Origin: a virus
Length of the DNA stretch: 64,000 nucleotides
Reading direction: 5' to 3' (one strand)
Virus record (IMG/VR): IMGVR_UViG_3300002461_000857
Both the position numbers and the translations under genes were made by a program. Under the pieces are notes generated by a model, which was not told where the DNA came from, searched no databases, and saw only the letters and a list, made by a program, of their open reading frames with translations. How positions within the stretch are numbered: position 1 is the first letter of the stretch; every line of letters begins with the position of its first letter. Shown in pieces: positions 1 to 13,322 of the stretch.

Positions 1-14
1 GTATACTGGCCTCC

Positions 15-275
15 GTGGACGATCAGCAGCAGGGCTCTGGGAGTGACGAGGGCGAGACTGGCGCACCTGACCCGGGATCGATCGAGGAGAAGCGTCGGGC
101 AGTGTTCGAGAGCCTGCCCCCGGAGATCCAGAACGATCCCAAGGTACGAGCTCGGTTCGGACTCGGCGATCTGGTCGAGGCTGTAGCAGCCCCGTTCGCC
201 AAGGTCCTTGGCGTCCAGGGCTGCTCGTCGTGCCAACGACGCAAGGCGTGGCTCAACAAGCTCGGTCGTCGTTGA
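15..275 (+). CDS. Small phage protein with GLGD..C..C..R..LN motif (true start may differ)
   Basis: C-terminus GLGDLVEAVAAPFAKVLGVQGCSSCQRRKAWLNKL matches a short Cys-pair motif I recognise from phage hypothetical proteins. Confidence 0.6.
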   Translation: MDDQQQGSGSDEGETGAPDPGSIEEKRRAVFESLPPEIQNDPKVRARFGLGDLVEAVAAPFAKVLGVQGCSSCQRRKAWLNKLGRR

Positions 276-586
276 AACGCCTCCCTCATTTTTCGGTACG
301 ATGGGGTAGATGCCGTCCGACAATGAACCGCGCGACTCCTGGAAATACTGCGGCGTCGATCGCACGATCCACGCCTTCCCGGCCGCGCCGGTCCCCCGAG
401 TGTCCCGGTGTGGATCGGTTCAGGATCCAGGACGAAACTTCGCCATGGCGCGCCAGCGTGTACAAAATGCCTCGCTCTCACGAACAACGCTGGCCATGCG
501 CCACGGGGTCCGATGATCTTGGACCGAGCCTGACGTCGCTCCTCGATTTCGACGCACTGCGATCTGGTCTGGCATCGAGATTTTTC

Positions 587-652
587 CTTCCCCGTTCAGC
601 GAGGGCCTGCGGCACTCTCCAGGGGCATCACATCGGGCATGCCCTGCCCTAG
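587..652. repeat. Copy 1 of a duplicated structured non-coding element
   Basis: 610-652 matches 12646-12688 at 42/43 nt; 587-607 matches 12592-12612 at 18/21 nt. Confidence 0.9.
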
Positions 653-673
653 CTCGAACCGAAGATCGGTGCG

Positions 674-1030
674 CTACTCCTTCTTCTTGATCGTTGGCCC
701 GGACGAAGCTGCGGGGCCGCCCTGCATCTCCATCGCTCGCATCGCTTCGGCGAGCTCAGCGGACTGCTTGCGCTGCTCCTCGTTCTGAGGGGCCCGCTGG
801 ATCAGCATGCCTCGGAACGTGACAACGGACTGCATGAGGGGAAAGTCCGCTCCGGTGAATGTGATCGAGAAGTTCTTTCCGTCTCGACGGAGCTGGCTCG
901 TCACACCCTTTCGGAACGCATCCGAGCGGAGCTGTCGAACCACCCCGCTGAGGATTCCCCACTGCGCGTCATCCAGTTCGAAGTGGATCGTCTCGCTCTT
1001 CATTGTCTTCTTCCAGCCCGGGGCGTGCAC
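674..1030 (-). CDS. Hypothetical protein
   Basis: 118-aa ORF with protein-like composition, co-oriented with neighbours. Confidence 0.6.
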   Translation of the reverse strand: MHAPGWKKTMKSETIHFELDDAQWGILSGVVRQLRSDAFRKGVTSQLRRDGKNFSITFTGADFPLMQSVVTFRGMLIQRAPQNEEQRKQSAELAEAMRAMEMQGGPAASSGPTIKKKE

Positions 1031-1608
1031 CGCGGTGTTCGCGTCGTGAGGATGAGTTCTGGGTTTGGATCGATCTCGACCAGTTCAGTTCTCGGAATCC
1101 GAAAGACGTGCCTGATGCAGTAGATGTCGATCGGATCGTAGAACTTGATCAGTTTCAGCATCGTCTTTGCTGCTTCATGGAACGACAGACTACGCTTCTT
1201 ACCTTTGCGTACGCGACTATTGATGTCGTCGATGGTATCGACTGCAACGTTCCCTTCCTGGTCGATCGCCAGGATCATGTTCACGGCAATGTGACCTGAA
1301 GGCGCACTTCTATCGATCGGAAGACAGGATTTTTCTCGGCTCGTATCGAAGATCCGAACAAGTTCTCTCTTTTTGATTGGCAAAGGATCGGTGCCATCCT
1401 TCGGGATCTTCAAGGTCCGAGTGAGGTGATGCACCTCGACTCGACCACTCATGTCTTCGCCGATGTCGACGATGAGTCGGTCGACGTCCTCGCAACGATC
1501 GACGCTGTAGGCAGCCACTTGCCCTGTCTCGTCGACAGCGATGAGAACGTGGGCCGAGACCTCGGTCTTTGAACGAGTGAACCTGAACCTGGTCTTGGAT
1601 CTGCTCAT
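1000..1608 (-). CDS. Hypothetical protein with an internal two-domain duplication
   Basis: ATG at 1608 overlaps the upstream TGA (ATGA); HVLIAVDETGQVAAY and NMILAIDQEGNVAVD are repeated halves. Confidence 0.65.
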   Translation of the reverse strand: MSRSKTRFRFTRSKTEVSAHVLIAVDETGQVAAYSVDRCEDVDRLIVDIGEDMSGRVEVHHLTRTLKIPKDGTDPLPIKKRELVRIFDTSREKSCLPIDRSAPSGHIAVNMILAIDQEGNVAVDTIDDINSRVRKGKKRSLSFHEAAKTMLKLIKFYDPIDIYCIRHVFRIPRTELVEIDPNPELILTTRTPRCTPRAGRRQ

Positions 1609-2294
1609 GGCGTCTCCGAGGCTCCATCGGTCTGCGAGGGCTGCGCCTTGGTCTTCGATGGATCCAGACCTGGACAGATCGTGTCGTCGTCGCTCAGCCA
1701 CACATTCTCTCCGAGGCGAGGCGCATACCATGGAGCGTTCGTCGTCTCGAAGCACGATCGGCACCCTGAACTCCCCATGGCCTTGCTCTCGCCGGGGTGC
1801 GGATCGACGTGCTTTCCGCATCGGGAAGTGGAAAGGTCGTTGGACACGTCCATGATGAAGGCGTGGTAGCGACCGCAGTGATGCTTCCACGAGTCCCGAC
1901 GCTCTCGGATCCCTGCGACGATCACGTGCAGGTGATCGTCGTCGGACGGATCCCTCGTCGAACCCCACGCGACCGGCGTCTGGTACACGTCGGGCCCGAA
2001 ACCAACACAGGTCGTGTTGATCGGAGGAGACGCCTTGGCCTTCCGTGGTAGCGGCTCCGCCTTGGCGATCGAGTCCAAGCGCTCCATCGCGATGACGTGG
2101 ATCTGATCTGGACTTCCGACCCAGCGCGTGTACTCCGACCACATCATCCCGAGCCATGCATGGAGTGTCCACGAAGGATTGATGATGGCGTCGTGCCAAC
2201 GGCTGACTTCGTCGTCGATCGACGACTCGAACGATTCTGGATCGATCTCTCCGTTGACGATCCGATGCATGACGGGGACGTGGCTGAACTTCAT
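1605..2294 (-). CDS. Hypothetical protein
   Basis: 229-aa ORF with stop/start overlaps on both sides. Confidence 0.6.
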   Translation of the reverse strand: MKFSHVPVMHRIVNGEIDPESFESSIDDEVSRWHDAIINPSWTLHAWLGMMWSEYTRWVGSPDQIHVIAMERLDSIAKAEPLPRKAKASPPINTTCVGFGPDVYQTPVAWGSTRDPSDDDHLHVIVAGIRERRDSWKHHCGRYHAFIMDVSNDLSTSRCGKHVDPHPGESKAMGSSGCRSCFETTNAPWYAPRLGENVWLSDDDTICPGLDPSKTKAQPSQTDGASETP

Positions 2295-2587
2295 GACTGT
2301 GATCCTTTCTCGCCTCGACGAGACTTGATGTAGCGTATCGCGTCTTCTTCGCCATCGTCGCGGCCTATCGCTCTCGCGACATCGGTCAGTATGGGCTCTA
2401 GTTTGGACAACGCCTCGCTCAGCGATCGGGCTGAGGCACGGACGTCACGTACCGCTTGAGCCTCTTCCGAGAGGCCCTTCTCGTCCAGCCACTGCTCCGC
2501 TTCGTAGATTCCGCCATCGTCGCGCGACAGCACATCCAGGTCGTCGATGTGGATGAAGACTTTCCACCGTGAGGATGATGCGCTCAT
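2291..2587 (-). CDS. Hypothetical protein
   Basis: 98-aa helical ORF coupled to neighbours. Confidence 0.6.
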   Translation of the reverse strand: MSASSSRWKVFIHIDDLDVLSRDDGGIYEAEQWLDEKGLSEEAQAVRDVRASARSLSEALSKLEPILTDVARAIGRDDGEEDAIRYIKSRRGEKGSQS

Positions 2588-2601
2588 GGGTTCACCGATT
2601 C

Positions 2602-2796
2602 TCAGAGGTCTCGGATGCCCTCGTACTCTCGCATCAATGAGAGAGCTGTGTTCTTCTCTTCAGGCTTCGGGAGCCTGGACATGATGTGTCGGATCGAACG
2701 AAGGAGGAGAAGGCTCAGCCGGTCGTCGATCTGAGGAAGGGTCAAGTAGTGGTCGATCTCCTGCTTGATCCGTTCGGCCTCGGCGTCGAGTTTCAT
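2602..2796 (-). CDS. Hypothetical protein
   Basis: 64-aa ORF with ATGA overlap to the upstream gene. Confidence 0.6.
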   Translation of the reverse strand: MKLDAEAERIKQEIDHYLTLPQIDDRLSLLLLRSIRHIMSRLPKPEEKNTALSLMREYEGIRDL

Positions 2797-3320
2797 CTCT
2801 CACCTCGCTTCATCGCTTCAATGTGCGCGACGAAGTCCATCGCCTTCGTAGCTGCGCGTTGCGTACGGATCCTTTCACGCTCGACTTGCTGCATGAGGTC
2901 CGCCCAGAGTTCGCGGAGACTCTCGGCGGCCTTCACACGTAGCTCGCGTTTCGCCTTCAGGATCGGTCGCGTGTCCCAACTCTCAGACACGCAGTCGACT
3001 CCAGATTCGATGAACAGCCCCCACTCCCCCTCGTAGTTCGAGTACGAAAGGACTATGAGTTTATCGTGTCCATCCCCTATGCCTTCGACGTCAAGGCAAG
3101 CAGACGCGCGTAGCTTGATGCCCGTGGCACGAAGAGCCTTCTCCACTGCGATCAGGGCGGAGTTTAGAGATTCGTAGCCAGCGTTCAGATTTGCCAGAGC
3201 ACGCGACAGTTCGTCGTGATCCTCAGATTCCGTTGCGACCTCCGGATCTGTGATGTTGGCGTCTCGGGCATGCATCGTCAGGGGTAGTTCCTCGGTGAGC
3301 GTTGACTCTCCGTATTTCAC
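2793..3320 (-). CDS. Hypothetical coiled-coil protein
   Basis: 175-aa ORF with 4-nt overlaps on both sides. Confidence 0.65.
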   Translation of the reverse strand: MKYGESTLTEELPLTMHARDANITDPEVATESEDHDELSRALANLNAGYESLNSALIAVEKALRATGIKLRASACLDVEGIGDGHDKLIVLSYSNYEGEWGLFIESGVDCVSESWDTRPILKAKRELRVKAAESLRELWADLMQQVERERIRTQRAATKAMDFVAHIEAMKRGER

Positions 3321-3715
3321 ACCGGTGTCTCCAGGAGGTCGGCCGCGAGCTCGTACCCGGCGGCGAGTCGGAATCGATCAGTGTTCTCCAGATGGTCGAC
3401 GTAGGGCATCTTGCGGAGCTTTCCGGCCTCCGTACGCAGGTCTTTGATGCACTTCGAACGTTCGTCGCTCTTCACCTTCTCCTTGGCGATGCGCTCCTTC
3501 ACGTCGGCGAGCTTATCGCACTCATTCTCCTTCACGTCAGCTTTCGGTTCGGCTCCGAACTCCTTCGCGAGCAGAACGTCCACCTCCCGGCGAAGTTCGG
3601 CGAGTGATGAGGACGCGAACCTGGCGACGCTTGTTGCCAGACGGATCGATTCGAACGTCACGTCGACGCATGCGTGGAACAGATCGATGGACGCTGGCTT
3701 GATGTCTGCGATCAT
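3317..3715 (-). CDS. Hypothetical protein (MIADIKP...)
   Basis: AGGAG RBS; ATG at 3715 overlaps the tnpB stop codon (ATGA). Confidence 0.65.
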   Translation of the reverse strand: MIADIKPASIDLFHACVDVTFESIRLATSVARFASSSLAELRREVDVLLAKEFGAEPKADVKENECDKLADVKERIAKEKVKSDERSKCIKDLRTEAGKLRKMPYVDHLENTDRFRLAAGYELAADLLETPV

Positions 3716-5004
3716 GGAGATGCTCCTTGCTCTGCACTGTCTCGCCCGGACTGGAGTTGAAGCATCGCGGTATTGATCTGCCTCGTCGTCGTAATCTTGC
3801 ACGACTCACACCTGAACCGCGACGACGGATGCTCCTCGGGCTCGTTCACGTGACCGCACTTATGGCACTGAAGGTTGGTCGGGGCATGCGAATCAGTAAC
3901 GATGAGATTCGATCCGTACCACTTCGACTTGTACTCGAGCTGCAAGCGGAGCTGGCCCCATGCGGCGTCGTGGATCCTCCGTCGTGATTCCCGACGCATC
4001 TGCGATCGTGTCGATCTTCGGGGCGTAGAGTCTTCCGAGACGGTGGTCTTCCTCTTCACCAGGCTGGCGATGTTGAATCCTTCGACGACGACATGTGACG
4101 CCGTCGTGGCGAGACGCTTGCTGATCTTGTGGATCGCGTCAGTCCTCTGATCTGCGATCTCCGCGTGGAGCTTCGCGATCTTCATGCGCAGCTTCTCGCG
4201 GTTCTTGCCCTCGCCCTTGTTCTTCCCGTTCAGCTTCCTCTGGAAGAGACGCTGAAGGTGCTCGAGCTTCCGAAGCTTGGACTCGAGGTGGCGTCCGGGT
4301 TCCTCTTCGATGACCGAGCCATCACTTCCCACACACGTGAGTCGATGGTTCAGGCCCAGGTCGACGCCGATGATCGGCCCCTTAATCGGCTCGGGATCTG
4401 GACGCTCCCTTCGCACCATGATCGTGGCGTACCAATGATCTGCACGACGACAGATCGAGATCCTGAGGATCTTTCCGTCGAGGTAGCGGCCCTTGCCTGA
4501 CGCGAGTCTCTCTGCCCCCTTCGCGTCTGGAGTCGGACTCACGTACTCCGAGACGCGGACCATGCCGATCTTCCCCAGCTTGATCGATCGTGGCGTCGAC
4601 CGGAAGCTCTGGTCCTGGATCGTGAAGGCGTCCCTGGACTTCCCCTTCGCCTTGAACCGAGGATGACCAGCCTTGACGTCCGATCCTCCACGCTTCTCCT
4701 TCACGCGTCGGAAGAAGTGCTTGTACGCGTCGTCCATCGCCGTGATCGCGTAGCTCGCAACGTTGGCGATCAGCTCGCGAGACCACTCGGGCTTCTCCTG
4801 CGTCCAGTGCCGAGAGATGTCGAAGGCCGAGAGCCGAGGCTCCTTCTCTTCCTTCGGAAGATCCTTGTTCTTCTCCCACCACGCTATCCGCTTCGCGAGG
4901 GCCCAGTTGAAAATGAACCTCGCCATGCCGGCGTGCTTCCGGAACAAGACCTCTTGCTCCGGGTTGAGCTCGAGCCGATACCGGAACGCCTCGTGGACTT
5001 CCAT
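3712..5004 (-). CDS. tnpB: TnpB/Cas12f-like protein with substituted RuvC-III residue (probably nuclease-dead, TldR-like)
   Basis: N-terminal AFRYRLELNPEQ...ARFIFNWAL (OrfB HTH), RuvC-I IGVDLG, RuvC-II VVVEGF, Zn finger CHKC...CESC, RuvC-III region TRQINTA instead of DRDxNAA; alternative GTG start at 5022. Confidence 0.9.
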   Translation of the reverse strand: MEVHEAFRYRLELNPEQEVLFRKHAGMARFIFNWALAKRIAWWEKNKDLPKEEKEPRLSAFDISRHWTQEKPEWSRELIANVASYAITAMDDAYKHFFRRVKEKRGGSDVKAGHPRFKAKGKSRDAFTIQDQSFRSTPRSIKLGKIGMVRVSEYVSPTPDAKGAERLASGKGRYLDGKILRISICRRADHWYATIMVRRERPDPEPIKGPIIGVDLGLNHRLTCVGSDGSVIEEEPGRHLESKLRKLEHLQRLFQRKLNGKNKGEGKNREKLRMKIAKLHAEIADQRTDAIHKISKRLATTASHVVVEGFNIASLVKRKTTVSEDSTPRRSTRSQMRRESRRRIHDAAWGQLRLQLEYKSKWYGSNLIVTDSHAPTNLQCHKCGHVNEPEEHPSSRFRCESCKITTTRQINTAMLQLQSGRDSAEQGASP

Positions 5005-5035
5005 GGCCCCGGACCTTGTCACGGACCGTCGCTTG

Positions 5036-5064
5036 GCGCAAGGATTACTGTACGGGTAGGGAAA
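5036..5064. promoter_or_regulatory. Repeated operator-like motif upstream of tnpB
   Basis: GCGCAAGGATTACTGTACGGGTAGGGAAA is nearly identical to 18784-18813 and related to 9184-9211. Confidence 0.55.
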
Positions 5065-5415
5065 CTAGGACCTAGAGGCGGCGTCAACCGCCTTCTCAAC
5101 CGCGTCATGCATCGGATCTCCGCCCCACATCCACCACGCCTGGATCGCAGGCTCCTGCATCGCTGACTTGAGGCTGCTCCCAGATCGCTTGACGGCCTTC
5201 TGGTAGTAGCCGTGATGACGCCGGAACCAGGCTCGCAGGAGCACGGCGTCCTGCTGCTGGCCATCGACGAGCTCGTGGGCGCGACGGATCCCGGTGACCG
5301 TGCAACATCGCTTCGACGGTGTCGCGAGTCGCCTCGCCTCGATCCCCTTCGCCGCCAACGCGGACGCTTGACGAGGAACGTCGATCCAGACCTCTCCGAG
5401 TCGCGGCTTTGCCAT
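5065..5415 (-). CDS. Hypothetical protein
   Basis: 116-aa ORF with protein-like composition. Confidence 0.55.
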   Translation of the reverse strand: MAKPRLGEVWIDVPRQASALAAKGIEARRLATPSKRCCTVTGIRRAHELVDGQQQDAVLLRAWFRRHHGYYQKAVKRSGSSLKSAMQEPAIQAWWMWGGDPMHDAVEKAVDAASRS

Positions 5416-5706
5416 GGCTGCTCCAGTGTGCCAGATCGGCTACGATCCAGGTCATGTACGTCGGATCGTTCTACCCGGCCTCGAGCTACCCCCAGACCGG
5501 CCACTACAGGATCCATGGGCGGAGCGGGGTCCGGGTCTTCTCGGTCGATCCGGAGGGTCGATGCGCGACGATGAGCGAGGAGAACGCGAAGACGATTCGC
5601 GAGGCTTCGCTTCGGCGATCCTCACAGCGTCGAGTCTCAAGCGTTGCTCGATCGTCGCGTCACGAGCCGCACTGGTTGCTGGCTGCCTGCCGCTGGTGAT
5701 CCGTGT

Positions 5707-6204
5707 CTACGTGTCGAGCGACGTGATCCGGATCATCCTCGAGTCGTACTTGCCGTTGTCGTCGAGCGGACGGCATTGGAAGTAGATAGGCGCACACGTC
5801 CTGAAGTTTCCGATCGAAGAGGCCTTGTCCCGCAAGTACTGCGGACTGCACCACTGACTGAACCATTCCTCTTCCTCTCCTGCGGGCCACGGGTTCACCG
5901 GACCCGTCTTCTGCTGTCGAAGCAATGGTCCGTTGAACAGAGCGTCACGCTGCGCCTCGAAAGAGTCGTTCGCTTCCTTGATGGCTGCATCTCGACGCTC
6001 CTCGTATTGCTTGAGGAGGATGGAGAGTCGACGTCCGGTCGCCACGTCTGTGACGTGCACAGGCCTGAACATGTATCCGGGGTGGTATCCTTCCACAGAC
6101 ACAAATCCATAATCCGAAGATCCTGTGACCACCCCTGACAAGTACGTGGTCGTCGGCAGACCTGTGTACTTCCAGAAGGCGTAGCTTCCGACTTCGTATT
6201 TCAT
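5707..6204 (-). CDS. Hypothetical protein (MKYEVGSY...)
   Basis: GGAG RBS upstream of ATG 6204; coiled-coil middle and C-terminal Cys pair. Confidence 0.6.
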   Translation of the reverse strand: MKYEVGSYAFWKYTGLPTTTYLSGVVTGSSDYGFVSVEGYHPGYMFRPVHVTDVATGRRLSILLKQYEERRDAAIKEANDSFEAQRDALFNGPLLRQQKTGPVNPWPAGEEEEWFSQWCSPQYLRDKASSIGNFRTCAPIYFQCRPLDDNGKYDSRMIRITSLDT

Positions 6205-6215
6205 GATCGATCTCC

Positions 6216-7133
6216 TCAAGTGTCCCAGTGTGCCGTGGGATCGTTGTAGTTGGGGTAGTGCTTCTCGAGCCACGCGCAGCACACCTTACGTTGCTCCCCT
6301 TCGACGATCTGCCGAGCACGCACGTGTTCCGGGTCCCAGACGCTTCTGCTGCAGGGAAGGTCGACTGGCTCGGCGGAGAAGACCTCGACTCCAGCGTCCA
6401 GGACGCGCGTTCGGATCACGTAATCCTTGTCGTAGTCGCGCATCACGGAGAACCTGCGCACGAACCTCACCCATGCTTCAGAGGCGAAGACCGTGGTCTT
6501 GTAGAACATGGACAGGCGCTTGCGACCTCTCTCGTCGACGAAGTCCGAGTACATCGGATGATCGGTGGACTTCTGCTTCCAGCCCACCGGGAATCTCACC
6601 TGACGGAAGACGCCGTCCACCGCGGTCCCGAACTCGAACCCCATCGCCTTCCACACGCGAGCACACTCGATGTCCTCGGAGAGCTCCTCGATCTGGAAGG
6701 TCACGCGCCCGACATCCTCGGGCGGGAGCTCGGGATCCACGAGCCACGCCTTGAGGATCTTCAGGCGGTCCTCCGCTCCCTCGAGGACGACGGGCTCCAT
6801 GCGGCCCCTTCGCTCACGGTATCCGGGGCTCCCGTTGATCGGGAGCTGACCTCTCGCGCTGACGGAACTGCTCCCGATCTCGCACTGATCGTCGACGATC
6901 TTATCGATCGGAACCCCGTACATCGCCTCTCCCAGCATGATGGTCGCGACGAGAAACGGATCCTCGGACCTCGCCTGGGGGTGACCTGGAGTCGTGGTCC
7001 GTTTCCGAACCGACGGATCGCGCCTTCGCATCCACTCAGCCTCTTCGTCATCGTCCTCCAAATGTCCGGTGAGCACGTCGAAGGGTCGACCGGTGAACGG
7101 GTCGATCGCGAGGATCCGATTCTTTGATCTCAT
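6216..7133 (-). CDS. Hypothetical phage protein
   Basis: ~305-aa ORF with AGAGGA RBS; mixed alpha/beta composition. Confidence 0.6.
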   Translation of the reverse strand: MRSKNRILAIDPFTGRPFDVLTGHLEDDDEEAEWMRRRDPSVRKRTTTPGHPQARSEDPFLVATIMLGEAMYGVPIDKIVDDQCEIGSSSVSARGQLPINGSPGYRERRGRMEPVVLEGAEDRLKILKAWLVDPELPPEDVGRVTFQIEELSEDIECARVWKAMGFEFGTAVDGVFRQVRFPVGWKQKSTDHPMYSDFVDERGRKRLSMFYKTTVFASEAWVRFVRRFSVMRDYDKDYVIRTRVLDAGVEVFSAEPVDLPCSRSVWDPEHVRARQIVEGEQRKVCCAWLEKHYPNYNDPTAHWDT

Positions 7134-7167
7134 GACACTCAATCCTCTCGTCAGTGTGGGGTAGGCG

Positions 7168-7347
7168 CTAGAGTCGCTCGCCGTCGTTGATCGCGGCGAT
7201 GTCCAGGTAGAGATCGCCGATCCGAAGCTCGAGCTTTCGCCGACGCTCGTCGGTCTCAGGAAGGGCTTCCATGCGGGCGGTCAGCTTGATGATCTCGTCG
7301 GAGATCTGTGCCTCGGATCTCCGAGGCATGGGTTGCTTTCGTGGCAT
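7168..7347 (-). CDS. Small helical hypothetical protein
   Basis: MPRKQPMPRRSEAQIS...LYLDIAAIND amphipathic helices. Confidence 0.45.
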   Translation of the reverse strand: MPRKQPMPRRSEAQISDEIIKLTARMEALPETDERRRKLELRIGDLYLDIAAINDGERL

Positions 7348-7358
7348 GGATCCACCGA

Positions 7359-7811
7359 TCAGAGGTCGACGACCAAGTCCTGGAGGTTGACCGGAGTCTC
7401 GATCGGGACGTCGACCTTTCGACGAAGATCGACGATGATCTCCAGGCCGGACGAGGCGATCCAGTTCTCGAACATCGAGTCCCACATCGGATCGAAGGAC
7501 CCCGCCTTGGTTCTCCGGCACACGGTTCCGCTGGGGGTGACCGAGGTCTCGAACGGATCCACGGGACGTGCCGGGCCCCGCCCGCGGACGATGACGACCT
7601 CACGATCGGTCTTCACCGTCTCCTTGAAGGTGCGCTTGCGTGGCTCGAGCATGGAGACGTGGATCGCGTCGTTGTACTGCGCCCACTTGCCCTCGCGAAC
7701 CTTGGCGGTCCGGCAGTAGGTCCCGATCCACCCGAACGATCCGGAGAGGTAGACGGTGACGTCGGTGTAGAGGGTGGGCTCAGCGTCGTGGATCGGGACA
7801 GCGGTGGTCAT
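7359..7811 (-). CDS. Hypothetical protein
   Basis: 150-aa ORF with AAGGA RBS. Confidence 0.65.
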   Translation of the reverse strand: MTTAVPIHDAEPTLYTDVTVYLSGSFGWIGTYCRTAKVREGKWAQYNDAIHVSMLEPRKRTFKETVKTDREVVIVRGRGPARPVDPFETSVTPSGTVCRRTKAGSFDPMWDSMFENWIASSGLEIIVDLRRKVDVPIETPVNLQDLVVDL

Positions 7812-7829
7812 GGTGCTTTCCTTGAAGTC

Positions 7830-9089
7830 TCAGACAGCCTCGGCCTTCGCCTTGGCCTTGCGGGTCTTGCGGGGCGCGACCCAGTGGAGCGGGACGCTGC
7901 AGCGGGTCACGATGGTCTGACGGTAGCCATTGTAGGTGTCCAGTTTCTTGACGGTGGCCGCGATCTGGACCCGCTCACCCTCGACCAAGTCGTCGGTATT
8001 CCCTGACGCCCACCACACGATCTGTGCACCGGTCGCGACCTCGGTCATGACGACCTGGGTGGTCACGCCGAAATCCCCGTCGAAGTAGCGCTTGCGCACG
8101 ACCTCGACGTAGGTCGCGATCTTCTGACCGGCCGCGCCAACGACGGCGTCGGGGTTGACGACGATCCGCCGCGCGCGCTCCAGCAGCTCGCCGCGATGGC
8201 GCTGCCAGGCCGCGACCATCGAGCAGGCCAGACCGACGTGCTTGAAGGAGCACCAGCCAGCATTCGCGATCACGGCGAGGTTGTCGATGTAGTCCGAACC
8301 GGACTGCTCCTTCGCCCAGTGCATCGTTCGCTTCGCGACCGCGAAGTCACGACGCTCCATGGTGGCCTCGGGGAAGTGCTTCCGGCGGTCCTCCTGCTCC
8401 ATGTCGATCCAGAAGTTGGCACTTTCCGAAGTGCTAGGCCTGTCCTCCGACTCCGCTCGCTTGCGCGAGCACCAGCCGTAGGTGCGGATCATCATCGCGG
8501 TCACGGACAGCAGCTTGCCGAGGTCGTGGCCGCGGAAACGGCCCCCGCCTCCGCCCTCTGCGTCCGGATCGTCCGACTGCATCAGATCCACGGCGACGAA
8601 GCCGAGTTCGACGACGGACTGCGCGTTGCGACCCAGGCCGGTGAAGTCGGGAAGGCAGGTCGACCCGACCACCTTGCGCGCGCCGGTGCTGACGTTCTGG
8701 ACGAGATAGGAGACCGATCGGCGCCGCTCGGTGCGGCAGTGGTCGCAGCGAGTCGAGCGGATCTCTCGATCCACTTCGAGGCTCTCGCACCCCGGCGACT
8801 TGCTGACGATCACGCCACTCTCGCCCATGAAGTCGTACTTCGCGACGAGGGTCCATCCCGCGACGCACACCGGGGCGCCGGTCAGGACGACGTCGACCAT
8901 GACCCCGACCAGGACCTTGGTCCCGTCGCGCTTCTCCTTGTACACGGGACTCTCCGCGCCGAAGGTGAGGACGTAGGGCGCAACGCCGAGGCGGGCCGCG
9001 CGACGATTGAGGCGCTCGATGTCAGCGGCGAGCTTCTCGCGCCGCCAGATCCAGATCTTCGCTGTCCCGACCATCTTGGAGTCGCCCAT
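7830..9089 (-). CDS. Conserved phage protein with Zn-binding CDHC...C motif and probable C-terminal OB fold
   Basis: LNRRAARLG, GWTLVAK, CDHCRTERRR, VGSTCLPDFTG, and a C-terminal beta-rich segment ending TIVTRC. Confidence 0.7.
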   Translation of the reverse strand: MGDSKMVGTAKIWIWRREKLAADIERLNRRAARLGVAPYVLTFGAESPVYKEKRDGTKVLVGVMVDVVLTGAPVCVAGWTLVAKYDFMGESGVIVSKSPGCESLEVDREIRSTRCDHCRTERRRSVSYLVQNVSTGARKVVGSTCLPDFTGLGRNAQSVVELGFVAVDLMQSDDPDAEGGGGGRFRGHDLGKLLSVTAMMIRTYGWCSRKRAESEDRPSTSESANFWIDMEQEDRRKHFPEATMERRDFAVAKRTMHWAKEQSGSDYIDNLAVIANAGWCSFKHVGLACSMVAAWQRHRGELLERARRIVVNPDAVVGAAGQKIATYVEVVRKRYFDGDFGVTTQVVMTEVATGAQIVWWASGNTDDLVEGERVQIAATVKKLDTYNGYRQTIVTRCSVPLHWVAPRKTRKAKAKAEAV

Positions 9090-9098
9090 CGTTCCCTC

Positions 9099-9299
9099 GT
9101 CTCACCCGTTCGACGCGGGGGGACGCCCCGTTCTTCCACTCCCCATGCGCTGCACCGCCCGAGGAGCTCTTTGCCTTGCCGGAACCCTACCGGAAGGGTA
9201 ACTTTTCTTGCCCCCTCCTGGCAATCTCGAGCTCCCCTTGCGCCCGTGCGCATGGGGAGTGGAAGTTGGGGTGGTCCGGGGGCGTCGAACGGGTGAGAC
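9099..9299. repeat. ~70-bp imperfect inverted repeat flanking a divergent promoter region
   Basis: Arms 9099-9169 and 9229-9299 share two perfect 18-nt blocks (GTCTCACCCGTTCGACGC; CTTCCACTCCCCATGCGC). Confidence 0.9.
9176..9204 (+). promoter_or_regulatory. Sigma70-like promoter
   Basis: TTGCCG-N17-TAACTT upstream of the gene at 9300. Confidence 0.5.
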
Positions 9300-9884
9300 A
9301 TGATGGCCTCCCTTTCCAGCCCCTCTTCCTCCAAGCCGGTCGTCAAGGCGCTCGGCCGCGAGCACTTCTCGGTCCGTTTTCCCTGCGGAGGGTACGCGGA
9401 AGTCTACCGCGTCTACGATGGTGGGGTGCCGGTCGGGTACTCCTTCGAGGGCGAGAAGGCGAACGGAAAGCGCGTGGTGCGATACGGTCCGAGGTTTGAT
9501 ACCGATCATGAGGCCTTCCGTCGCGCGTGGTGCGAGGTGGTCGCGACTCCGGCCCCGCTCCCGATGAACGTCAGCGATCTCTACGAACTCGCGGCTCGAT
9601 GCGAGAACGATCGCACGCTCTTCAACAAGACCGTCAAGCGGCTCCTGTTCGAGCGTACCGGCTACCGCTTCACCGTCCGCAGCGGCCAGCGATCGTCCTA
9701 CTCCAGGATCGAGAACGACGAGAGCATCGAGCAGAGGGTCGCCATGGCGTCGGTATTCGGGGCCTCCCACGCGACCTCGATGTCCGTGAGCCCCCGCAAG
9801 AACGACCGGTTCTGGACCGTCTGCGTCGCGGCTGGGTTCCCGATGCCGGAAGGCATGCAGGTCGAAGAGCCCAACTACGACTGA
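9300..9884 (+). CDS. Hypothetical protein (putative early gene)
   Basis: 194-aa ORF, first gene of the rightward unit. Confidence 0.7.
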   Translation: MMASLSSPSSSKPVVKALGREHFSVRFPCGGYAEVYRVYDGGVPVGYSFEGEKANGKRVVRYGPRFDTDHEAFRRAWCEVVATPAPLPMNVSDLYELAARCENDRTLFNKTVKRLLFERTGYRFTVRSGQRSSYSRIENDESIEQRVAMASVFGASHATSMSVSPRKNDRFWTVCVAAGFPMPEGMQVEEPNYD

Positions 9885-9908
9885 ACGAAGGACCAGGAGA
9901 CCACGACG

Positions 9909-10136
9909 ATGCCCACGAAAAAGCCAGATCGTCGCCTGCTCCCTTTCTGTCGTCATGGAGGAGAGCACGTGATCACTTCGTCGGCGGAGCAGCGCTCTTC
10001 TTGGCGATGTGCGTGCGGGAGATCCTTGCTGCTGATACCGCAGAGGGGGACGACGTGGAGGGCGATGGTCCCAAGGCACAAGATCTCTGCGACTGCCGAA
10101 CCGATCCTTCACGCCGCCCCTACGCGCGGGCGATAG
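9909..10136 (+). CDS. Small Cys-containing hypothetical protein (starts MPTK)
   Basis: CCAGGAG RBS; FCRH...CACG. Confidence 0.55.
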   Translation: MPTKKPDRRLLPFCRHGGEHVITSSAEQRSSWRCACGRSLLLIPQRGTTWRAMVPRHKISATAEPILHAAPTRGR

Positions 10137-10156
10137 TCACCCAGGAGACCACGACG

Positions 10157-10363
10157 ATGCCCACCGAGAAATGCCCAGGATGCGACCAGGATCGGCCCAA
10201 CGTTGGGCCGTGGGATGGAAGCGGCCCCGGCGGCCATCGCCGCCTCTGCGGACCATGCAAGATCAAGATCTTTTGCGCCGGCCCCGGACCCGCTCGTATC
10301 AAGGCCGAGTTCGAGTCGCCCGAGGTTGCCGCATGGTTCGAGGGCCGCAACGAGCCGAGCTGA
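10157..10363 (+). CDS. Small Zn-finger protein (starts MPTE)
   Basis: CPGC...CGPC; RBS/start block identical to that of the preceding gene. Confidence 0.6.
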   Translation: MPTEKCPGCDQDRPNVGPWDGSGPGGHRRLCGPCKIKIFCAGPGPARIKAEFESPEVAAWFEGRNEPS

Positions 10364-10401
10364 CCGACACTTCACGAACCGATCCAGAGGAGTTCATCAA
10401 C

Positions 10402-10824
10402 ATGCCCACTGACACGCACGACTCATTCTTTGCGGCTGTCGCCGCACATCTCCCTCCCGACATCCGGGAGAACATCCGCCGCGATTCTTGGTGGAACGGT
10501 GACGACTACCTTCGTCGACTCGAATCCTATGGCCTCGCGGCGAGCTTCTTCGACGGGAAGGGTACGAAGACGATCATCACCGACTTCGCGAAGTCCGTGG
10601 CTCGGGTCCTCAGAGATCCTGGCAAGGATCCTCGCCTCGCGCCGCTGTCCAGCGCAGCTCGGTCCCTCTACCTGTCCGGCGCATACGAGCCGGTCGCTGG
10701 GGGGCAGAGAGAGCACGATGAGCTGTGTCGAGCTGGGCTGGTCTCTCGTCAGTGGGTCACACTCGATCCGAACGTGCACGGCAACGACGCTCCTGCTGGA
10801 CATTGGGTGTGGCAACCCACCTGA
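10402..10824 (+). CDS. Hypothetical protein (starts MPTD)
   Basis: GAGGAG RBS, 140 aa. Confidence 0.65.
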   Translation: MPTDTHDSFFAAVAAHLPPDIRENIRRDSWWNGDDYLRRLESYGLAASFFDGKGTKTIITDFAKSVARVLRDPGKDPRLAPLSSAARSLYLSGAYEPVAGGQREHDELCRAGLVSRQWVTLDPNVHGNDAPAGHWVWQPT

Positions 10825-10900
10825 TCGACACTCTTCGAGCCCGCCCGTAACGCAGACCCTTGGGTCTGAGCGTGCGGGCTCGAAGACGTGAAGAGACCCG

Positions 10901-11218
10901 ATGCCCACCACCAAGCTCACTTCCGACGTCTTCGTAACCGCAATGCACCCCAACGCTCACCGTGACGTCGAGACCGGCACGCTTTCCGCCGGCTCGCTTG
11001 TCCGTTGCGTCCGCATCATCCGGGGCGGGGTCGACGAGAACGGCGATCCGTGCACCTTGACACACTTCGAGGCAAGCACTGACGGCGGTGTGCACTGGTA
11101 CCCTCACCGCTGCACCGGCGAGCTTCCAACGGACGCGTTCGAGTGGGACGGACGCACGACGATGGAGGGCACAGACCCGCCCGCCAGCGCTGCGAGAAGC
11201 ACCCTCGACGATGGGTGA
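10901..11218 (+). CDS. Hypothetical beta-rich protein (starts MPTT)
   Basis: 105-aa ORF following a hairpin-like spacer. Confidence 0.6.
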   Translation: MPTTKLTSDVFVTAMHPNAHRDVETGTLSAGSLVRCVRIIRGGVDENGDPCTLTHFEASTDGGVHWYPHRCTGELPTDAFEWDGRTTMEGTDPPASAARSTLDDG

Positions 11219-11337
11219 TTTTCGAGTGGGTCTGGAGAGAAGGCTCATCCGAAGAAGACTCCGATGCACGCCTTGTCCGAGGGTGCAAGCTTTGCAACGA
11301 GGAGGTCGAAGAAGACGATCTCCTCAAAGAGTGAACC

Positions 11338-11580
11338 ATGACACGCTACAGCATCGATCAGGTCACCGCGATCTGTGCCTCTTCCCGACCCAAGGATCAC
11401 GAGAAGATCCTCGAGCAGGCGGAGTCGATCGTTCCGATCCAGGCAAGCTTCGCGATGTGGTACCTTGGAGAGCACCTCCGGGCTCGCTTCGAGAAGGATG
11501 ACGAGCTCGCCGAGTTCTACGCAGCCAACCTGCAGCAGACCCTCGAGCAGTGGGACGAGCGTCCATGGGACAGCAACTAG
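11338..11580 (+). CDS. Hypothetical protein
   Basis: 80-aa helical ORF. Confidence 0.6.
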   Translation: MTRYSIDQVTAICASSRPKDHEKILEQAESIVPIQASFAMWYLGEHLRARFEKDDELAEFYAANLQQTLEQWDERPWDSN

Positions 11581-11813
11581 ACATCGAGCCGATCTACGTG
11601 GCGCTGATGCGTCTCCACGAGCAGCGTGGATCGTTCGAGGAGGCCCGGGCCGACCTGCTCGAGTTCGTCCTGTACGCGCTTCCGAACGATCGTCGGATCC
11701 CGATCAACATCGAGGCTGCCAGGCTACTTCTCGCGTGGAAGGAGTATGAGAAGGAGCTCGTCTCCTCCCCGGACATCGACGACGATCGATCGACGTCTAT
11801 CCGATCCAGATGA
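11565..11813 (+). CDS. Hypothetical protein
   Basis: Overlaps the end of the previous ORF; helical composition. Confidence 0.55.
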   Translation: MGQQLDIEPIYVALMRLHEQRGSFEEARADLLEFVLYALPNDRRIPINIEAARLLLAWKEYEKELVSSPDIDDDRSTSIRSR

Positions 11814-11957
11814 GGACACGGACCACCGCCTCGATCGCGTATCCGATCCCTCCGAGGATCCCCACGATGAAGGCCGAGATGACGAAGATCTCCCACTTGC
11901 TCCTGAGCGGATGTTCGTGAGGTCTTGGTCCATCCGTCTTGACTGATCCATCCACAG

Positions 11958-12452
11958 CTGGCACCTGATCCTGCTCTTCCGACCCGATACGAGTGTATTC
12001 CGCGACGACCCGTGGCACTGGGTTCTGCTCTTCCGACCCGATGCGAGCGTGTGGTTCCGATTCACATCGTCGACTAAACCCCTTCTGGCACCGTGTCCTG
12101 CTCTTCTGATCCGGTGCGAGAACACCGCTCGATCGACCTCCGCGCGGGATTGAAGGACCCTGGCACTGGGGCGACAGCTTCCGAGCGCGAGCGGCACTCT
12201 CGGTCTGGCACCTGATCCTGATCTTCCGACCCGGTACGATGCGCGCCGCACCCGAAGTGCAAGCGATCGGGGACCCTGGCACCGGGTCCTGCTCTTCCGA
12301 CCCGGTACGAGGACGATGCCGGCGCTCGACCTCGAGCGACTTGAGCCTGGCACTGGGTCCTGCTCTTCCGACCCGGTGCGAGGGGGTGCTGGGAGGGGAC
12401 CGTGAACCTGCAACTCCTGGCACTGGGTCCTGCTCTTCCGACCCGGTGCGAG
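11958..12452. CRISPR. Orphan CRISPR-like array: 8 x 36-bp hairpin repeats, no cas genes in the window
   Basis: Consensus CTGGCACTGGGTCCTGCTCTTCCGACCCGGTGCGAG; repeats start at 11958, 12012, 12085, 12160 (degenerate), 12205, 12276, 12347, 12417; spacers 18, 37, 39, 13, 35, 35, 34 nt; the two rightmost repeats are identical and degeneracy increases leftwards. Confidence 0.65.
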
Positions 12453-12591
12453 GGTCACGTTTGGGCTCGGATCACGGTACCGCATGGTCAAGTTCGAGGT
12501 CAGGATCTCGCACGCACCTCGGCGCGTGGACGATCCCCGGTCTTGCGTGCGTTGCTCCATTCGTCTCGCGTCGGATCGGAAGTTCAGGACA

Positions 12592-12688
12592 CTTCCCCGT
12601 TCGTAGAGGGCCACCTCGATCCGAAAGACTCGGGTCGAGGTTTGACGGCACTCTCCGGGGGCATCACATCGGGCATGCCCTGCCCTAG
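12592..12688. repeat. Copy 2 of the duplicated structured element, with an extra 29-nt hairpin
   Basis: Matches 587-652; insertion 12613-12641 ACCTCGATCCGA-AAGAC-TCGGGTCGAGGT folds on itself. Confidence 0.9.
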
Positions 12689-12788
12689 ACCAGCTCAATG
12701 CCGGCGACGTCGACCCTGCCACGGATCGGCATCTCTCGGCAAGGGAAAAGTTTCCGGACCGGCACCGTGATCGGGTTATCCTAGATCG

Positions 12789-13322
12789 ATGCGAATCTCC
12801 GCCATCAGCCCCGAACTTCTCCCTCCTCTCGATGCCAGGCTCATGGAGCTCGGCCTCGTTCCGATCCAGGCCGTGGTGACACCCAACTGCGGGGATTACG
12901 GTCATCCCCTTGATCTCGAACTGAAACCCGATCGGGAGCTTCGACTGATCGGAATCTCGAGTCATGCCGATCCGAACATCTACTGGATCAATCAGATCTG
13001 CGTGAACGACAGAGTCATTCTCAAGGAGATCGATCTGTCAACCTTCTGCTGCAATCACATCGTTCCGTTTGCATTCGGAGACAACTCCGTCGTCGCTCCT
13101 TGCGATCGACCCGCTCCGATCACTTTCCGAATCTCTTTCATGTGCCACCCGTCCGCGCCTCCGACGTTCAGCTTGACGCTCTGGGGATGTGTCGAAGGCG
13201 ACGAGACCAAGAAGGTCGATCCTCGGCTCGTTCGGGTGCTTCGGGAACTGAAGGCGTCCTCGTACAAGGTCACCGATCCGCAGATCCTTGCGATGTTCGA
13301 CAAGTACGCGGAGTGGATCTAG
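12789..13322 (+). CDS. Hypothetical beta-sandwich-like protein
   Basis: 177-aa ORF with alternating hydrophobic strands ending FSLTLWG. Confidence 0.6.
   Translation: MRISAISPELLPPLDARLMELGLVPIQAVVTPNCGDYGHPLDLELKPDRELRLIGISSHADPNIYWINQICVNDRVILKEIDLSTFCCNHIVPFAFGDNSVVAPCDRPAPITFRISFMCHPSAPPTFSLTLWGCVEGDETKKVDPRLVRVLRELKASSYKVTDPQILAMFDKYAEWI

What the first reader, a model, noticed from the sequence alone, without database searches (positions are those of the whole stretch)
587..12688. Structured non-coding element present twice, 12 kb apart, bracketing tnpB; one copy abuts the repeat array
Seen: 610-652 and 12646-12688 match at 42/43 nt. Homology continues (587-607 vs 12592-12612, 18/21), and copy 2 carries a cleanly inserted 29-nt hairpin (12613-12641), the kind of indel tolerated by structured RNAs. 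The core contains GGGCAT...ATGCCC stems. Read on the minus strand (the tnpB strand), copy 2 leads through ~140 nt into the first array repeat, which ends TGCCAG. Copy 1 is followed by CTCGATGCCAG (569-579), i.e. the two ends of the repeat with its hairpin missing. Inference: a guide-RNA scaffold used once as a single guide and once in front of an array. An alternative is recombination boundaries of a 12-kb module.
Basis: partly seen in the sequence, partly recalled or inferred. Interest (0 to 1): 0.75.

Follow-up and report, generated by a model that had tools for sequence, protein, structure and literature searches.

The report
Viral dead-TnpB guide-RNA scaffold, duplicated
The sequence found twice is the protein-binding scaffold of the guide RNA of a small virus-borne CRISPR-like system built on a probably non-cutting TnpB protein: one copy leads into a spacer array, and the other looks like the same scaffold collapsed into a single fixed guide.

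Summary
Window 610-652 and 12646-12688 match 42/43, and 587-607 and 12592-12612 match 18/21.

In six relatives, the same element lies directly 3' of the orthologous tnpB-like gene, on its strand. There it is followed by a 28-nt anti-repeat and a CRISPR-like array of 36-nt repeats homologous to the window's array.

Twelve copies support a four-helix fold: 93.7% of cells are paired against 37-50% in slid controls, and 11 pairs show compensatory change. The anti-repeat co-varies with each locus's own repeat. The effector clade carries Gln in place of the RuvC-III Asp, so it probably binds DNA without cutting it.

- **Copy 2** is a tracrRNA-like gene with its array.
- **Copy 1** sits at the 3' end of the tnpB operon. 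It keeps the core helices but lacks the peripheral hairpin and the anti-repeat. It runs through a 9-nt linker into a repeat 3' tag (CGATGCCAG). It is either a collapsed single guide or a relic; this is unresolved.

No target was found for any spacer, and nothing shows transcription. The element matches no Rfam family.

This is a new variant of a known kind (TranC, type V-U, TldR, dCas12f). The scan has noted similar virus-borne dead-TnpB array systems on other DNA, but not this sequence family.

The parts
12689..12762 (-). Conserved upstream region of the copy-2 cassette. It includes hairpin P0 (12689-12705) and is a possible promoter region. Cassette homology ends at 12762.
   Evidence: Homology to L006, L008 and L009 stops at 12762 in all three (alignment). 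P0 folds in every copy. No sigma-70 consensus was found.
12592..12688 (-). Copy 2 scaffold. Block A is 12688-12646, with P1 at 12685-12671. The peripheral hairpin P3 is about 12640-12614. Block B is 12612-12592. P2 and P4 join blocks A and B.
   Evidence: Alignment A4 and covariation counts. The covariance model scores 129 bits. The minimum-energy fold recovers P0, P1, P3 and P4, z = -2.1.
12564..12591 (-). Anti-repeat: 28 nt that pair with nt 1-27 of the 36-nt repeat.
   Evidence: Duplex energy is -41.7 kcal/mol, against -20.4 +/- 3.6 for shuffles. Each locus's own repeat generally gives the strongest duplex.
12453..12563 (-). Stretch between the anti-repeat and the first repeat. It holds a conserved GCACGC...GCGTGC hairpin.
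   Evidence: Alignments A2 and A3. The stretch is about 70 nt shorter in L006, L009 and L008.
11958..12452 (-). CRISPR-like array of 8 repeats of 36 nt (CTCGCACCGGGTCGGAAGAGCAGGACCCAGTGCCAG). Repeats degenerate away from the scaffold. There is one irregular half-repeat unit at 12161-12204.
   Evidence: The repeats are homologous to those in L002, L003, L004, L012, L006 and L009.
3712..5004 (-). TnpB-like effector, 430 aa from the ATG at 5004. RuvC-I Asp and RuvC-II Glu are kept; the RuvC-III Asp is replaced by Gln (TRQINTA).
   Evidence: Pfam; NCBIfam guided_TnpB at 235.7 bits; alignment to ISDra2 TnpB structures; clade alignment.
674..3715 (-). Seven small ORFs with overlapping stops and starts, between tnpB and copy 1. 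None has a family assignment.
   Evidence: Gene calls on L014. No Pfam, PHROG or NCBIfam hits. Codon-position GC pattern.
587..670 (-). Copy 1 scaffold. P0 is 658-670, block A is 652-610 with P1 at 649-635, and block B is 607-587. A short GCA turn replaces P3. There is no anti-repeat.
   Evidence: The covariance model scores 81.5 bits. Duplex with the repeat is only -16.8 kcal/mol.
569..586 (-). Linker GAAAAATCT (586-578) followed by the repeat 3' tag CGATGCCAG (577-569). The tag matches 7 of 9 nt of the single-stranded end of the repeat (CAGTGCCAG).
   Evidence: Sequence. Chance estimate about 0.008. Similar half-repeats occur in L004 and L002.
534..568 (-). Putative fixed guide of copy 1. 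Its length is assumed from the array's spacers, and no target is known.
   Evidence: Inferred from position only. No match in the window, the fetched loci or the public collections.

Best explanation
The repeated element is the effector-binding scaffold of the guide RNA of a virus-borne, TnpB-derived CRISPR-like system. It is read on the minus (tnpB) strand.

**Fold.** The RNA forms a 5' hairpin (P0), then a 5-bp hairpin with a conserved GGGCA loop (P1). Two nested long-range helices (P2, P4) close a variable peripheral hairpin (P3).

**Copy 2.** This is a tracrRNA-like gene. Its scaffold is followed at once by a 28-nt anti-repeat that pairs with the first 27 nt of each 36-nt repeat of the array downstream. 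This leaves a 9-nt tag (CAGTGCCAG) and the spacer single-stranded, to be loaded as the guide.

**Effector.** The partner is inferred to be the 430-aa TnpB-like protein at 3712-5004. Gln replaces its RuvC-III aspartate across the whole clade. The complex therefore most likely binds target DNA without cutting it, silencing or excluding targets as TldR, Cas12m or dCas12f do. The system has no adaptation genes.

**Copy 1.** This is the same scaffold at the 3' end of the tnpB operon. The two peripheral duplexes (P3 and the anti-repeat:repeat duplex) are removed, and a 9-nt linker joins block B to a repeat 3' tag and one fixed sequence. It reads as an omegaRNA-like single guide made by collapse of tracrRNA plus half a repeat.

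**Shown.** Conservation, position, covariation, anti-repeat matching, and the residue substitution.

**Inferred.** Protein-RNA partnership, transcription, lack of cleavage, and function of copy 1. I put about 0.8 on the scaffold identity and about 0.45 on copy 1 being a working guide.
For: **1. Position next to the effector gene.** In L002, L003, L004, L011, L012 and L013 the element lies directly 3' of the orthologous tnpB-like gene, on the same strand, and an array follows or begins at the contig end. L005 shows the P0 start before its contig ends.

**2. Structure.**
- In alignment A4 (12 copies), 93.7% of cells are paired, against 36.5-49.8% when partners are slid.
- 11 pairs change on both sides, against 0-3 in the slid controls.
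- No shuffle in 500 reaches the covariation score.
- P1 and P2 are 100% paired, with 5 co-varying pairs between them.
- G-U pairs at two P4 positions fit only the tnpB strand.

**3. Anti-repeat.** The window duplex is -41.7 kcal/mol, against -20.4 +/- 3.6 for shuffles. The cognate energies (-32 to -46 kcal/mol) are generally the strongest, while other repeat groups give about -20 to -30.

**4. Array homology.** Repeats share their ends across loci (GTCGCAGCGG...GGTGCCAC; in the window CTCGCACCGG...AGTGCCAG). They degenerate away from the scaffold.

**5. Effector clade.** The window protein, P0001-P0015 and P0028 have RQxNTA and EGF/EGY. All more distant homologues have DRDxNAA and EDLN. In the alignment to ISDra2 TnpB, the query's RQ lines up with the chain's RD of the DRDxNAA RuvC-III motif.

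**6. Copy 1.**
- All P1, P2 and P4 pairs are kept.
- In relative L001, copy 1 is the last 32 nt of the contig, matched by the covariance model, of which the final 30 nt are identical to the window's copies. The surrounding region is about 80% identical.
- P0 differs in sequence between the two but still folds.
- A repeat tag follows (chance about 0.008).
- Copy 1 lies on the tnpB strand at the end of a tightly coupled operon. This is the same relative place as in the tnpB-linked loci.

**7. Published precedent.** The collapse route (tracrRNA fused to a half repeat, keeping the repeat's 3' end) has been proposed for another dead lineage (PMC10691335, section 12). Single guides beside arrays are reported for dCas12f (PMC13472631).
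Against: - There are no expression data, and no promoter or terminator consensus near either copy.
- No protospacer was found for any spacer or for the copy 1 guide. I searched the window, all fetched loci, public genome and viral contigs, and deposited phages and plasmids.
- The window's tnpB is 3 kb from copy 1 and 7 kb from copy 2. Four cassettes in relatives (L006, L009, L008, L010) have no tnpB within the DNA held. The partnership therefore rests on the six linked loci.
- Conserved substitutions in RuvC can leave activity (caveat in PMC10691335, section 8).
- Copy 1 on its own does not fold better than shuffles (z = +0.97), and its minimum-energy fold lacks P1.
- Copy 1's near-identity to copy 2 could come from gene conversion rather than selection on copy 1.
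Confidence: 0.72

Rival explanations
1. Copy 2 is the working tracrRNA-like gene, but copy 1 is only a decaying relic of a second cassette or of an ancestral tnpB-adjacent scaffold. On this view its array and anti-repeat were deleted and it has no guide function.
For: - Copy 1 lacks the anti-repeat, P3 and the conserved 74-nt upstream region.
- Its fold is not significant on its own.
- No target was found.
- Arrays in this group are visibly eroding, with short spacers and half repeats.
- A relative (L009 plus L006) has a full second cassette downstream of a same-strand operon, a position that parallels copy 1's.
Against: - The final 30 nt of L001's copy 1 are identical to the window, in a relative that is about 80% identical around it.
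- Both deletions remove exactly the peripheral duplexes and keep every core pair and the guide-adjacent tag.
- P0 is replaced by a different hairpin rather than lost.
Confidence: 0.4
2. The two copies act mainly as direct-repeat recombination boundaries. They would allow the 9-12 kb module between them to be deleted, circularised or swapped between co-infecting viruses.
For: - Two viruses each have two same-strand copies bracketing unrelated cargo. In the window the cargo is the tnpB operon and other genes. In LNFM01000697.1 it is a glycosyltransferase, DegT and GNAT module.
- The cassette is shared at 75-92% identity between contexts with no protein homology.
- L008 diverges from the window exactly at the cassette edge.
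Against: - The element is a structured RNA with covariation and an anti-repeat, and in six loci it occurs once, next to tnpB.
- Only 43 + 21 nt are shared in the window.
- No recombinase lies between the copies.
- Recombination would be a by-product of carrying two cassettes, not the reason for their sequence conservation.
Confidence: 0.12
3. The copies are the left and right ends of an IS200/IS605-type transposon, or attL/attR of an integrated element that carries tnpB.
For: They are direct repeats holding a hairpin on the tnpB strand, on either side of tnpB. IS200/IS605 ends carry similar subterminal hairpins (general knowledge of the family).
Against: - There is no tnpA, integrase or other recombinase between the copies.
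- Relatives have only one copy per tnpB within 10 kb, always 3' of the gene and followed by an array.
- The tnpB gene is translationally coupled into a viral operon.
- The homology boundaries of the two copies differ.
Confidence: 0.03
4. The repeat is a duplicated protein-coding 3' end. Plus-strand ORFs 230-652 and 12239-12688 both stop at the TAG inside the element.
For: Both ORFs appear in the mechanical ORF list.
Against: - The second ORF runs through the repeat array.
- Codon-position GC gives no coding signal at 451-750 or 12151-12750.
- Changes among relatives are compensatory in RNA helices, and indels of 30-50 nt occur inside.
Confidence: 0.02

Closest known systems
TranC (transposon-CRISPR intermediate) systems and type V-U* groups: TnpB-sized effectors with a tracrRNA and a CRISPR array but no adaptation genes (Jin et al. 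2025, as cited in 10.64898/2026.09.14.751636; Altae-Tran et al. 2023, PMC10691335)
   Same: - The effector is TnpB-sized (405-436 aa) and closest to typical IS605-type TnpB.
- The array lies downstream of the gene in the linked loci.
- A tracrRNA-like scaffold carries an anti-repeat.
- No cas1, cas2 or cas4 lies near the locus.
   Different: - The RuvC-III Asp is replaced by Gln throughout the clade.
- All members found are in virus-like contexts.
- In the window and in four relatives' cassettes, the RNA cassette is unlinked from the effector gene.
- A second, array-less copy is present.
- Whether this clade is one of the catalogued V-U6 to V-U45 groups was not tested.
Cas12f (type V-F) tracrRNA:crRNA dual guide
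   Same: A long scaffold RNA pairs through an anti-repeat with the 5' part of the repeat. The repeat's 3' end and the spacer form the guide, which sits at the 3' end.
   Different: - No significant sequence match to solved Cas12f proteins; the best matches are TnpB structures.
- Below the NCBIfam cut-offs for Cas12f2 and C2c8.
- The scaffold matches no Rfam family.
- The effector is predicted not to cut.
Re-emergence of a single guide from tracrRNA plus a half repeat in dead Cas12f / sigma-factor-linked TnpB (PMC10691335, section 12; PMC13472631)
   Same: Copy 1 has exactly the proposed product architecture: scaffold, then the 3' end of a repeat, then one guide. It stands beside a lineage with an altered RuvC-III. 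Single guides and arrays coexist in one locus.
   Different: - The protein lineage is different (typical TnpB, not Cas12f).
- No conserved sigma-factor link. Only L004 has a sigma-70 gene beside its array.
- Here both states use a near-identical scaffold in one viral genome.
TldR, TnpB-like nuclease-dead repressors (10.1101/2023.11.30.569447)
   Same: A TnpB homologue with an altered RuvC site, carried on mobile or viral DNA, expected to bind DNA under RNA guidance.
   Different: - TldRs use one omegaRNA-derived guide aimed at a specific host promoter; this system has multi-spacer arrays and a tracrRNA-like RNA.
- No target was identified.
- Membership of the fliC or oppF TldR clades was not tested.
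TnpB omegaRNA (OMEGA system, e.g. ISDra2)
   Same: The RNA is encoded at the 3' side of tnpB on the same strand, with the guide at its 3' end. Copy 1 resembles this layout.
   Different: - No transposon ends and no tnpA.
- The scaffold starts after the stop codon rather than inside the ORF.
- Most guides come from an array through an anti-repeat.

Membership tests
Type V CRISPR-like system with tracrRNA (V-U / TranC / Cas12f-like) | Single effector with a TnpB/Cas12 RuvC-type fold | tested here: met
   Pfam OrfB_IS605, HTH_OrfB_IS605 and Cas12f1-like_TNB. NCBIfam guided_TnpB at 235.7 bits against a cut-off of 100. Solved TnpB structures match at E = 1e-28.
Type V CRISPR-like system with tracrRNA (V-U / TranC / Cas12f-like) | Array of direct repeats separated by unique spacers, conserved next to the effector gene | tested here: met
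   8 repeats in the window. Arrays of 4-13 repeats with unrelated spacers lie 3' of the gene in L002, L003, L004 and L012. In the window itself the array is 7 kb from the gene.
Type V CRISPR-like system with tracrRNA (V-U / TranC / Cas12f-like) | tracrRNA with an anti-repeat complementary to the repeat | tested here: met
   A 28-nt anti-repeat gives -41.7 kcal/mol against -20.4 +/- 3.6 for shuffles. It co-varies with the cognate repeat across loci. This is computational only; there are no RNA data.
Type V CRISPR-like system with tracrRNA (V-U / TranC / Cas12f-like) | Adaptation genes (cas1, cas2, cas4); absent in V-U and many V-F loci | tested here: not met
   None among the ORFs of window 1-13849 or the precomputed Pfam tables of L002, L003 and L004. 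The rest of the 175-kb genome was not scanned.
Type V CRISPR-like system with tracrRNA (V-U / TranC / Cas12f-like) | RNA-guided DNA cleavage through an intact RuvC triad | tested here: not met
   The RuvC-III Asp is Gln in the window protein, P0001-P0015 and P0028. Activity itself cannot be tested here.
TnpB omegaRNA / IS200-IS605 element | Guide RNA encoded at the 3' end of tnpB on the same strand | tested here: inconclusive
   Met in six relatives. In the window, copy 1 is 3 kb downstream, behind seven ORFs, and copy 2 is 7 kb upstream.
TnpB omegaRNA / IS200-IS605 element | Transposon ends, tnpA or signs of mobility | tested here: not met
   No tnpA or recombinase. There is one scaffold per tnpB in relatives. 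The gene is translationally coupled within a viral operon.
TldR (nuclease-dead TnpB repressors) | TnpB homologue with a disabled RuvC site | tested here: met
   RuvC-III D to Q, conserved across the clade. RuvC-I Asp and RuvC-II Glu remain, so inactivation is predicted, not shown.
TldR (nuclease-dead TnpB repressors) | Single guide matching a promoter of a host or neighbouring gene | tested here: not met
   No match for the copy 1 guide or any spacer. Host genomes from the same sample were not available.
Integrated element with attL/attR | Recombinase inside, identical core at both ends, empty site in relatives | tested here: not met
   No recombinase between the copies. The shared sequence is an RNA scaffold that occurs singly next to tnpB elsewhere. 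Empty sites could not be searched.
Any Rfam family | Match to a curated covariance model | tested here: not met
   No match at the gathering threshold in the window. Nothing credible at E <= 10 in 11900-12800.

The most novel reading that the evidence does not exclude
One viral genome runs the same non-cutting TnpB with two guide formats at once. One is a tracrRNA plus multi-spacer array cassette with its own upstream region. The other is a naturally minimised single guide, co-transcribed at the end of the tnpB operon, made of the scaffold core, a 9-nt linker, a 9-nt repeat tag and a fixed guide. On this reading the array serves conflict with other mobile elements, and the fixed guide controls one particular host or viral gene. 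It would be a living snapshot of interconversion between an omegaRNA and a split tracrRNA/crRNA. It would also be a natural blueprint showing which scaffold parts are dispensable.
Probability: 0.4. Interest if true: 0.75.

Novelty: new variant of a known kind. Interest (0 to 1): 0.58.

Why it matters
**A new RNA family.** The finding defines a structured RNA family that is not in Rfam. It ties that family to a rare clade of TnpB homologues: about 16 clusters among 5.8 billion, all from metagenomes, and those with neighbouring genes to read lie among virus-type genes. This clade has a fixed change in the cutting site and uses CRISPR-like arrays without adaptation genes.

**Evolution of guide RNAs.** The two copies show the split form (tracrRNA plus array) and the collapsed form (single guide) of one scaffold side by side. 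This bears directly on how omegaRNAs became tracrRNA and crRNA, and how they reverted.

**Engineering.** The natural deletions in copy 1 point to the parts of the scaffold that may be dispensable in a very small programmable DNA-binding system.

**Annotation.** Gene callers place false ORFs over these arrays and scaffolds.

Tried and rejected
- **Exact-pattern scans for the element core and the repeat core.** Nothing in genome contigs or viral contigs. A degenerate core pattern again found nothing there, but gave 5 loci in metagenome contigs.
- **Relatives of the phrog_2319 protein in viral contigs.** None.
- **Megablast of the 12.5-kb region against deposited phages.** No match. The best deposited-phage TnpB is only 31% identical.
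- **Protospacer searches.** All were negative or at chance level: window self-matches, all relatives' spacers against all held DNA, exact 24-mers in genome and viral contigs, and blastn of the array against phages and plasmids.
- **Whole-genome access.** The remaining ~105 kb of the 175-kb contig, the rest of LNFM01000697.1 and the host genomes could therefore not be searched.
- **Homologues of the ORF next to copy 1.** This returned only the window's own sequence and near-identical contigs, so no distant orthologue of copy 1 was obtained.
- **A distant clade member.** P0028 (locus L017) has no scaffold or array, only a weak 11.7-bit hit inside its ORF and a plain terminator.
- **Promoter and terminator consensus scans.** Nothing found near either copy.
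Rejected, because changes in relatives break it, while GGGCA/TGCCC co-varies.
- **att-site, IS-end and coding readings.** Considered and rejected; see the rival explanations.

Full report
**1. The observation**

The window is a 61% G+C piece of a 175-kb contig from an activated-carbon metagenome. Earlier notes of this scan describe it as a large uncultured virus.

- Positions 610-652 and 12646-12688 match 42/43. No third copy exists in 64 kb, and no shuffle produces a match.
- A second block, 587-607 against 12592-12612, matches 18/21.
- Between the blocks, copy 2 has 33 nt and copy 1 has 2 nt.
- The 36-nt repeat array lies at 11958-12452 and degenerates leftwards.
- A TnpB-like gene lies at 3712-5004 on the minus strand.

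**2. Relatives give the element its identity**

The closest homologues of the TnpB-like protein are all unnamed metagenomic proteins. I fetched their contigs.

- In L002, L003, L004, L011, L012 and L013 (protein identity 45-61%), the same two blocks sit directly 3' of the gene on its strand, 37-43 nt after the stop where the stop is clear.
- A hairpin of variable length and sequence lies between the blocks.
- An array of 36-nt repeats follows, or begins at the contig end.
- The repeats share their ends with the window's repeat read on the minus strand: GTCGCAGCGG...GGTGCCAC against CTCGCACCGG...AGTGCCAG.
- Gene callers had placed false ORFs over these arrays and had extended the TnpB ORF over the scaffold in L012.
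- L001, whose TnpB is 96% identical, is syntenic with window 623-9114 and ends inside copy 1.

**3. Structure**

I aligned twelve copies (A4).

- RNAalifold and a hand-completed structure give four elements: P1 (GGGCA, a GGGCA loop, TGCCC), a long-range P2 (CCCC with GGGG), P4 (GAGAG.GCC with GGC.CUCU) and the variable P3.
- 93.7% of cells form standard pairs, against 36.5-49.8% when the 3' partners are slid by 1-3 columns.
- 11 pairs change on both sides, against 0-3 in the slid controls.
- None of 500 shuffles reaches the covariation score.
- P1 and P2 are never broken.
- Frequent G-U pairs in P4 fit only the tnpB strand.
- A further hairpin, P0, precedes P1 in every copy with a different sequence in each.
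- A covariance model built from A4 finds exactly these copies and no others in 161 kb of held DNA.
- Rfam has no matching family.

**4. The anti-repeat**

- The 28 nt directly after block B pair with repeat nt 1-27.
- In the window the duplex energy is -41.7 kcal/mol, against -20.4 +/- 3.6 for shuffled tails.
- Across loci, the cognate combination is generally the strongest (-32 to -46 kcal/mol), and other repeat groups give about -20 to -30.
- The last 9 nt of the repeat (CAGTGCCAG) and the spacer stay unpaired.

Copy 2 is therefore a tracrRNA-like gene followed by its array.

- In the unlinked cassettes (window copy 2, L006, L009, L008), a further 74 nt upstream are conserved, and homology ends at window 12762 in all three relatives.
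- This suggests these cassettes carry their own expression signals, though no sigma-70 consensus is present.

**5. The effector**

- Aligned to ISDra2 TnpB structures, the protein keeps the RuvC-I Asp and RuvC-II Glu.
- It has Gln at the RuvC-III Asp position: TRQINTA where the canonical motif is DRDxNAA.
- The window protein, P0001-P0015 and P0028 all read RQxNTA and EGF/EGY. Every more distant homologue reads DRDxNAA and EDLN.
- I infer loss of DNA cleavage. The caveat, from PMC10691335 (section 8), is that conserved substitutions sometimes retain activity.
- No adaptation genes lie near any locus.

**6. Copy 1**

Features that fit a working single guide:
- It keeps all P1, P2 and P4 pairs. 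P3 is replaced by a short GCA turn that caps P4.
- It has no anti-repeat; its duplex with the repeat is -16.8 kcal/mol, which is background level.
- After block B come GAAAAATCT and then CGATGCCAG, which matches 7 of 9 nt of the repeat's single-stranded tag. TGCCAG within 30 nt is expected by chance about 0.8% of the time.
- Half repeats that keep only this 3' end also occur in the arrays of L004, L002 and the window.
- Copy 1 lies 22 nt after the last of seven translationally coupled ORFs that follow tnpB. It would therefore be co-transcribed with tnpB, as in the linked loci.
- L001 is about 80% identical in this region, yet the final 30 nt of its copy 1 are identical to the window and its P0 is a different hairpin.
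- L001 and L015 (a second assembly of the window's own sample) break at the same base. That base ends the 30-nt stretch shared by the two copies. This suggests the L001 virus also has two copies.

Features against:
- Copy 1 alone does not fold better than shuffles.
- No target is known.
- Its identity to copy 2 could reflect gene conversion.

I rate a working single guide at about 0.45 and a relic at about 0.4.

**7. Two copies bracketing a module**

- A degenerate core pattern found LNFM01000697.1, where L009 and L006 are contiguous.
- That record holds two complete cassettes 9.7 kb apart on one strand.
- They bracket glycosyltransferase, DegT aminotransferase and GNAT genes.
- The 12 kb held has no tnpB and no protein homology to the window.
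- L008 is 92.5% identical to window 12535-12762 and then diverges.

The cassette therefore moves or persists independently of its neighbours. Paired cassettes could promote module exchange, but I treat that as a side effect.

**8. Targets and role**

- No spacer and no candidate guide matched anything searched.
- By analogy with TldR, Cas12m and CRISPR-linked dCas12f (10.1101/2023.11.30.569447; PMC10442227; PMC13472631), the likeliest role is RNA-guided binding that silences rival mobile elements or host genes.

**9. Comparison with the literature**

- PMC10691335 describes many TnpB-derived V-U groups with arrays but no adaptation genes. It also proposes the same collapse route: tracrRNA fused to a half repeat, keeping the repeat's 3' end.
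- PMC13472631 reports single guides beside arrays for dCas12f.
- Earlier notes of this scan describe other virus-borne dead-TnpB or dead-Cas12f array systems on unrelated DNA. None shares this sequence.

I therefore class this as a new variant of a known kind. The split and collapsed guide forms on one genome, and the unlinked cassettes, are its distinctive points.

Noticed in passing
L009:1-1148 plus L006:1-10987 (LNFM01000697.1, record 58665-70799): A second virus-like contig has two complete scaffold-plus-array cassettes 9.7 kb apart on one strand. They bracket a sugar-modification module (GT2 and GT1-like glycosyltransferases, a DegT aminotransferase, a GNAT acetyltransferase). No tnpB lies in the 12 kb held.
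   Followed up: partly
window 12161-12204 (minus strand); L004:3640-3700; L002:12265-12285: The arrays contain half repeats that keep only the 3' end (...GTGCCA[G/C]). In the window, one such unit reads GAGAGTGCCG, identical to the 3' end of scaffold block A.
   Followed up: partly
window 610-620 and 12646-12656, compared with the repeat 3' ends: The 3' part of block A (G[A/G]GTGCC) tracks the 3' end of the locus's own repeat. It is AGTGCC in the window and GGTGCC in L002, L003 and L004. The repeat tag could therefore compete with block A for pairing to block B. This was not tested.
   Followed up: no
L001:8293-8322 and L015:2869-2898: Two Logan contigs from different samples end at the same base inside copy 1, at the end of the 30-nt stretch shared by both copies. 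This looks like an assembly-graph branch, and hints that the L001 virus also has two copies.
   Followed up: partly
L004:3716-4864 (minus strand), 8011-9078, 9586-10635: In one relative, a sigma-70 family gene (regions 2, 3 and 4) abuts the end of the array. The same contig carries a tyrosine integrase and an AcrVA2-like protein. The sigma link is not seen in the other loci.
   Followed up: no
L002:11780-12376, L003:5236-6144, L004:2874-3701, L012:5331-6806: Public gene calls place ORFs of 198, 302 and 275 aa over the repeat arrays. In L012 they extend the TnpB ORF to 491 aa across the scaffold.
   Followed up: yes
window 7830-9089 (minus strand): A 419-aa protein matches phrog_2319 (function unknown, E = 8e-64) over its full length. 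It is the only other ORF in the 12-kb interval with any family hit.
   Followed up: no
window 430-500: A long imperfect inverted repeat (GCGCATGGCCAGCGT ... ACGCTGGCGCGCCATGGCG) lies about 70-140 nt downstream of copy 1, between convergent genes. It may be a terminator without a U-tract.
   Followed up: no
L017:2433-4244: The most distant RQxNTA clade member (P0028, 603 aa) has a long low-complexity C-terminal tail, a plain intrinsic terminator, and no scaffold or array.
   Followed up: partly
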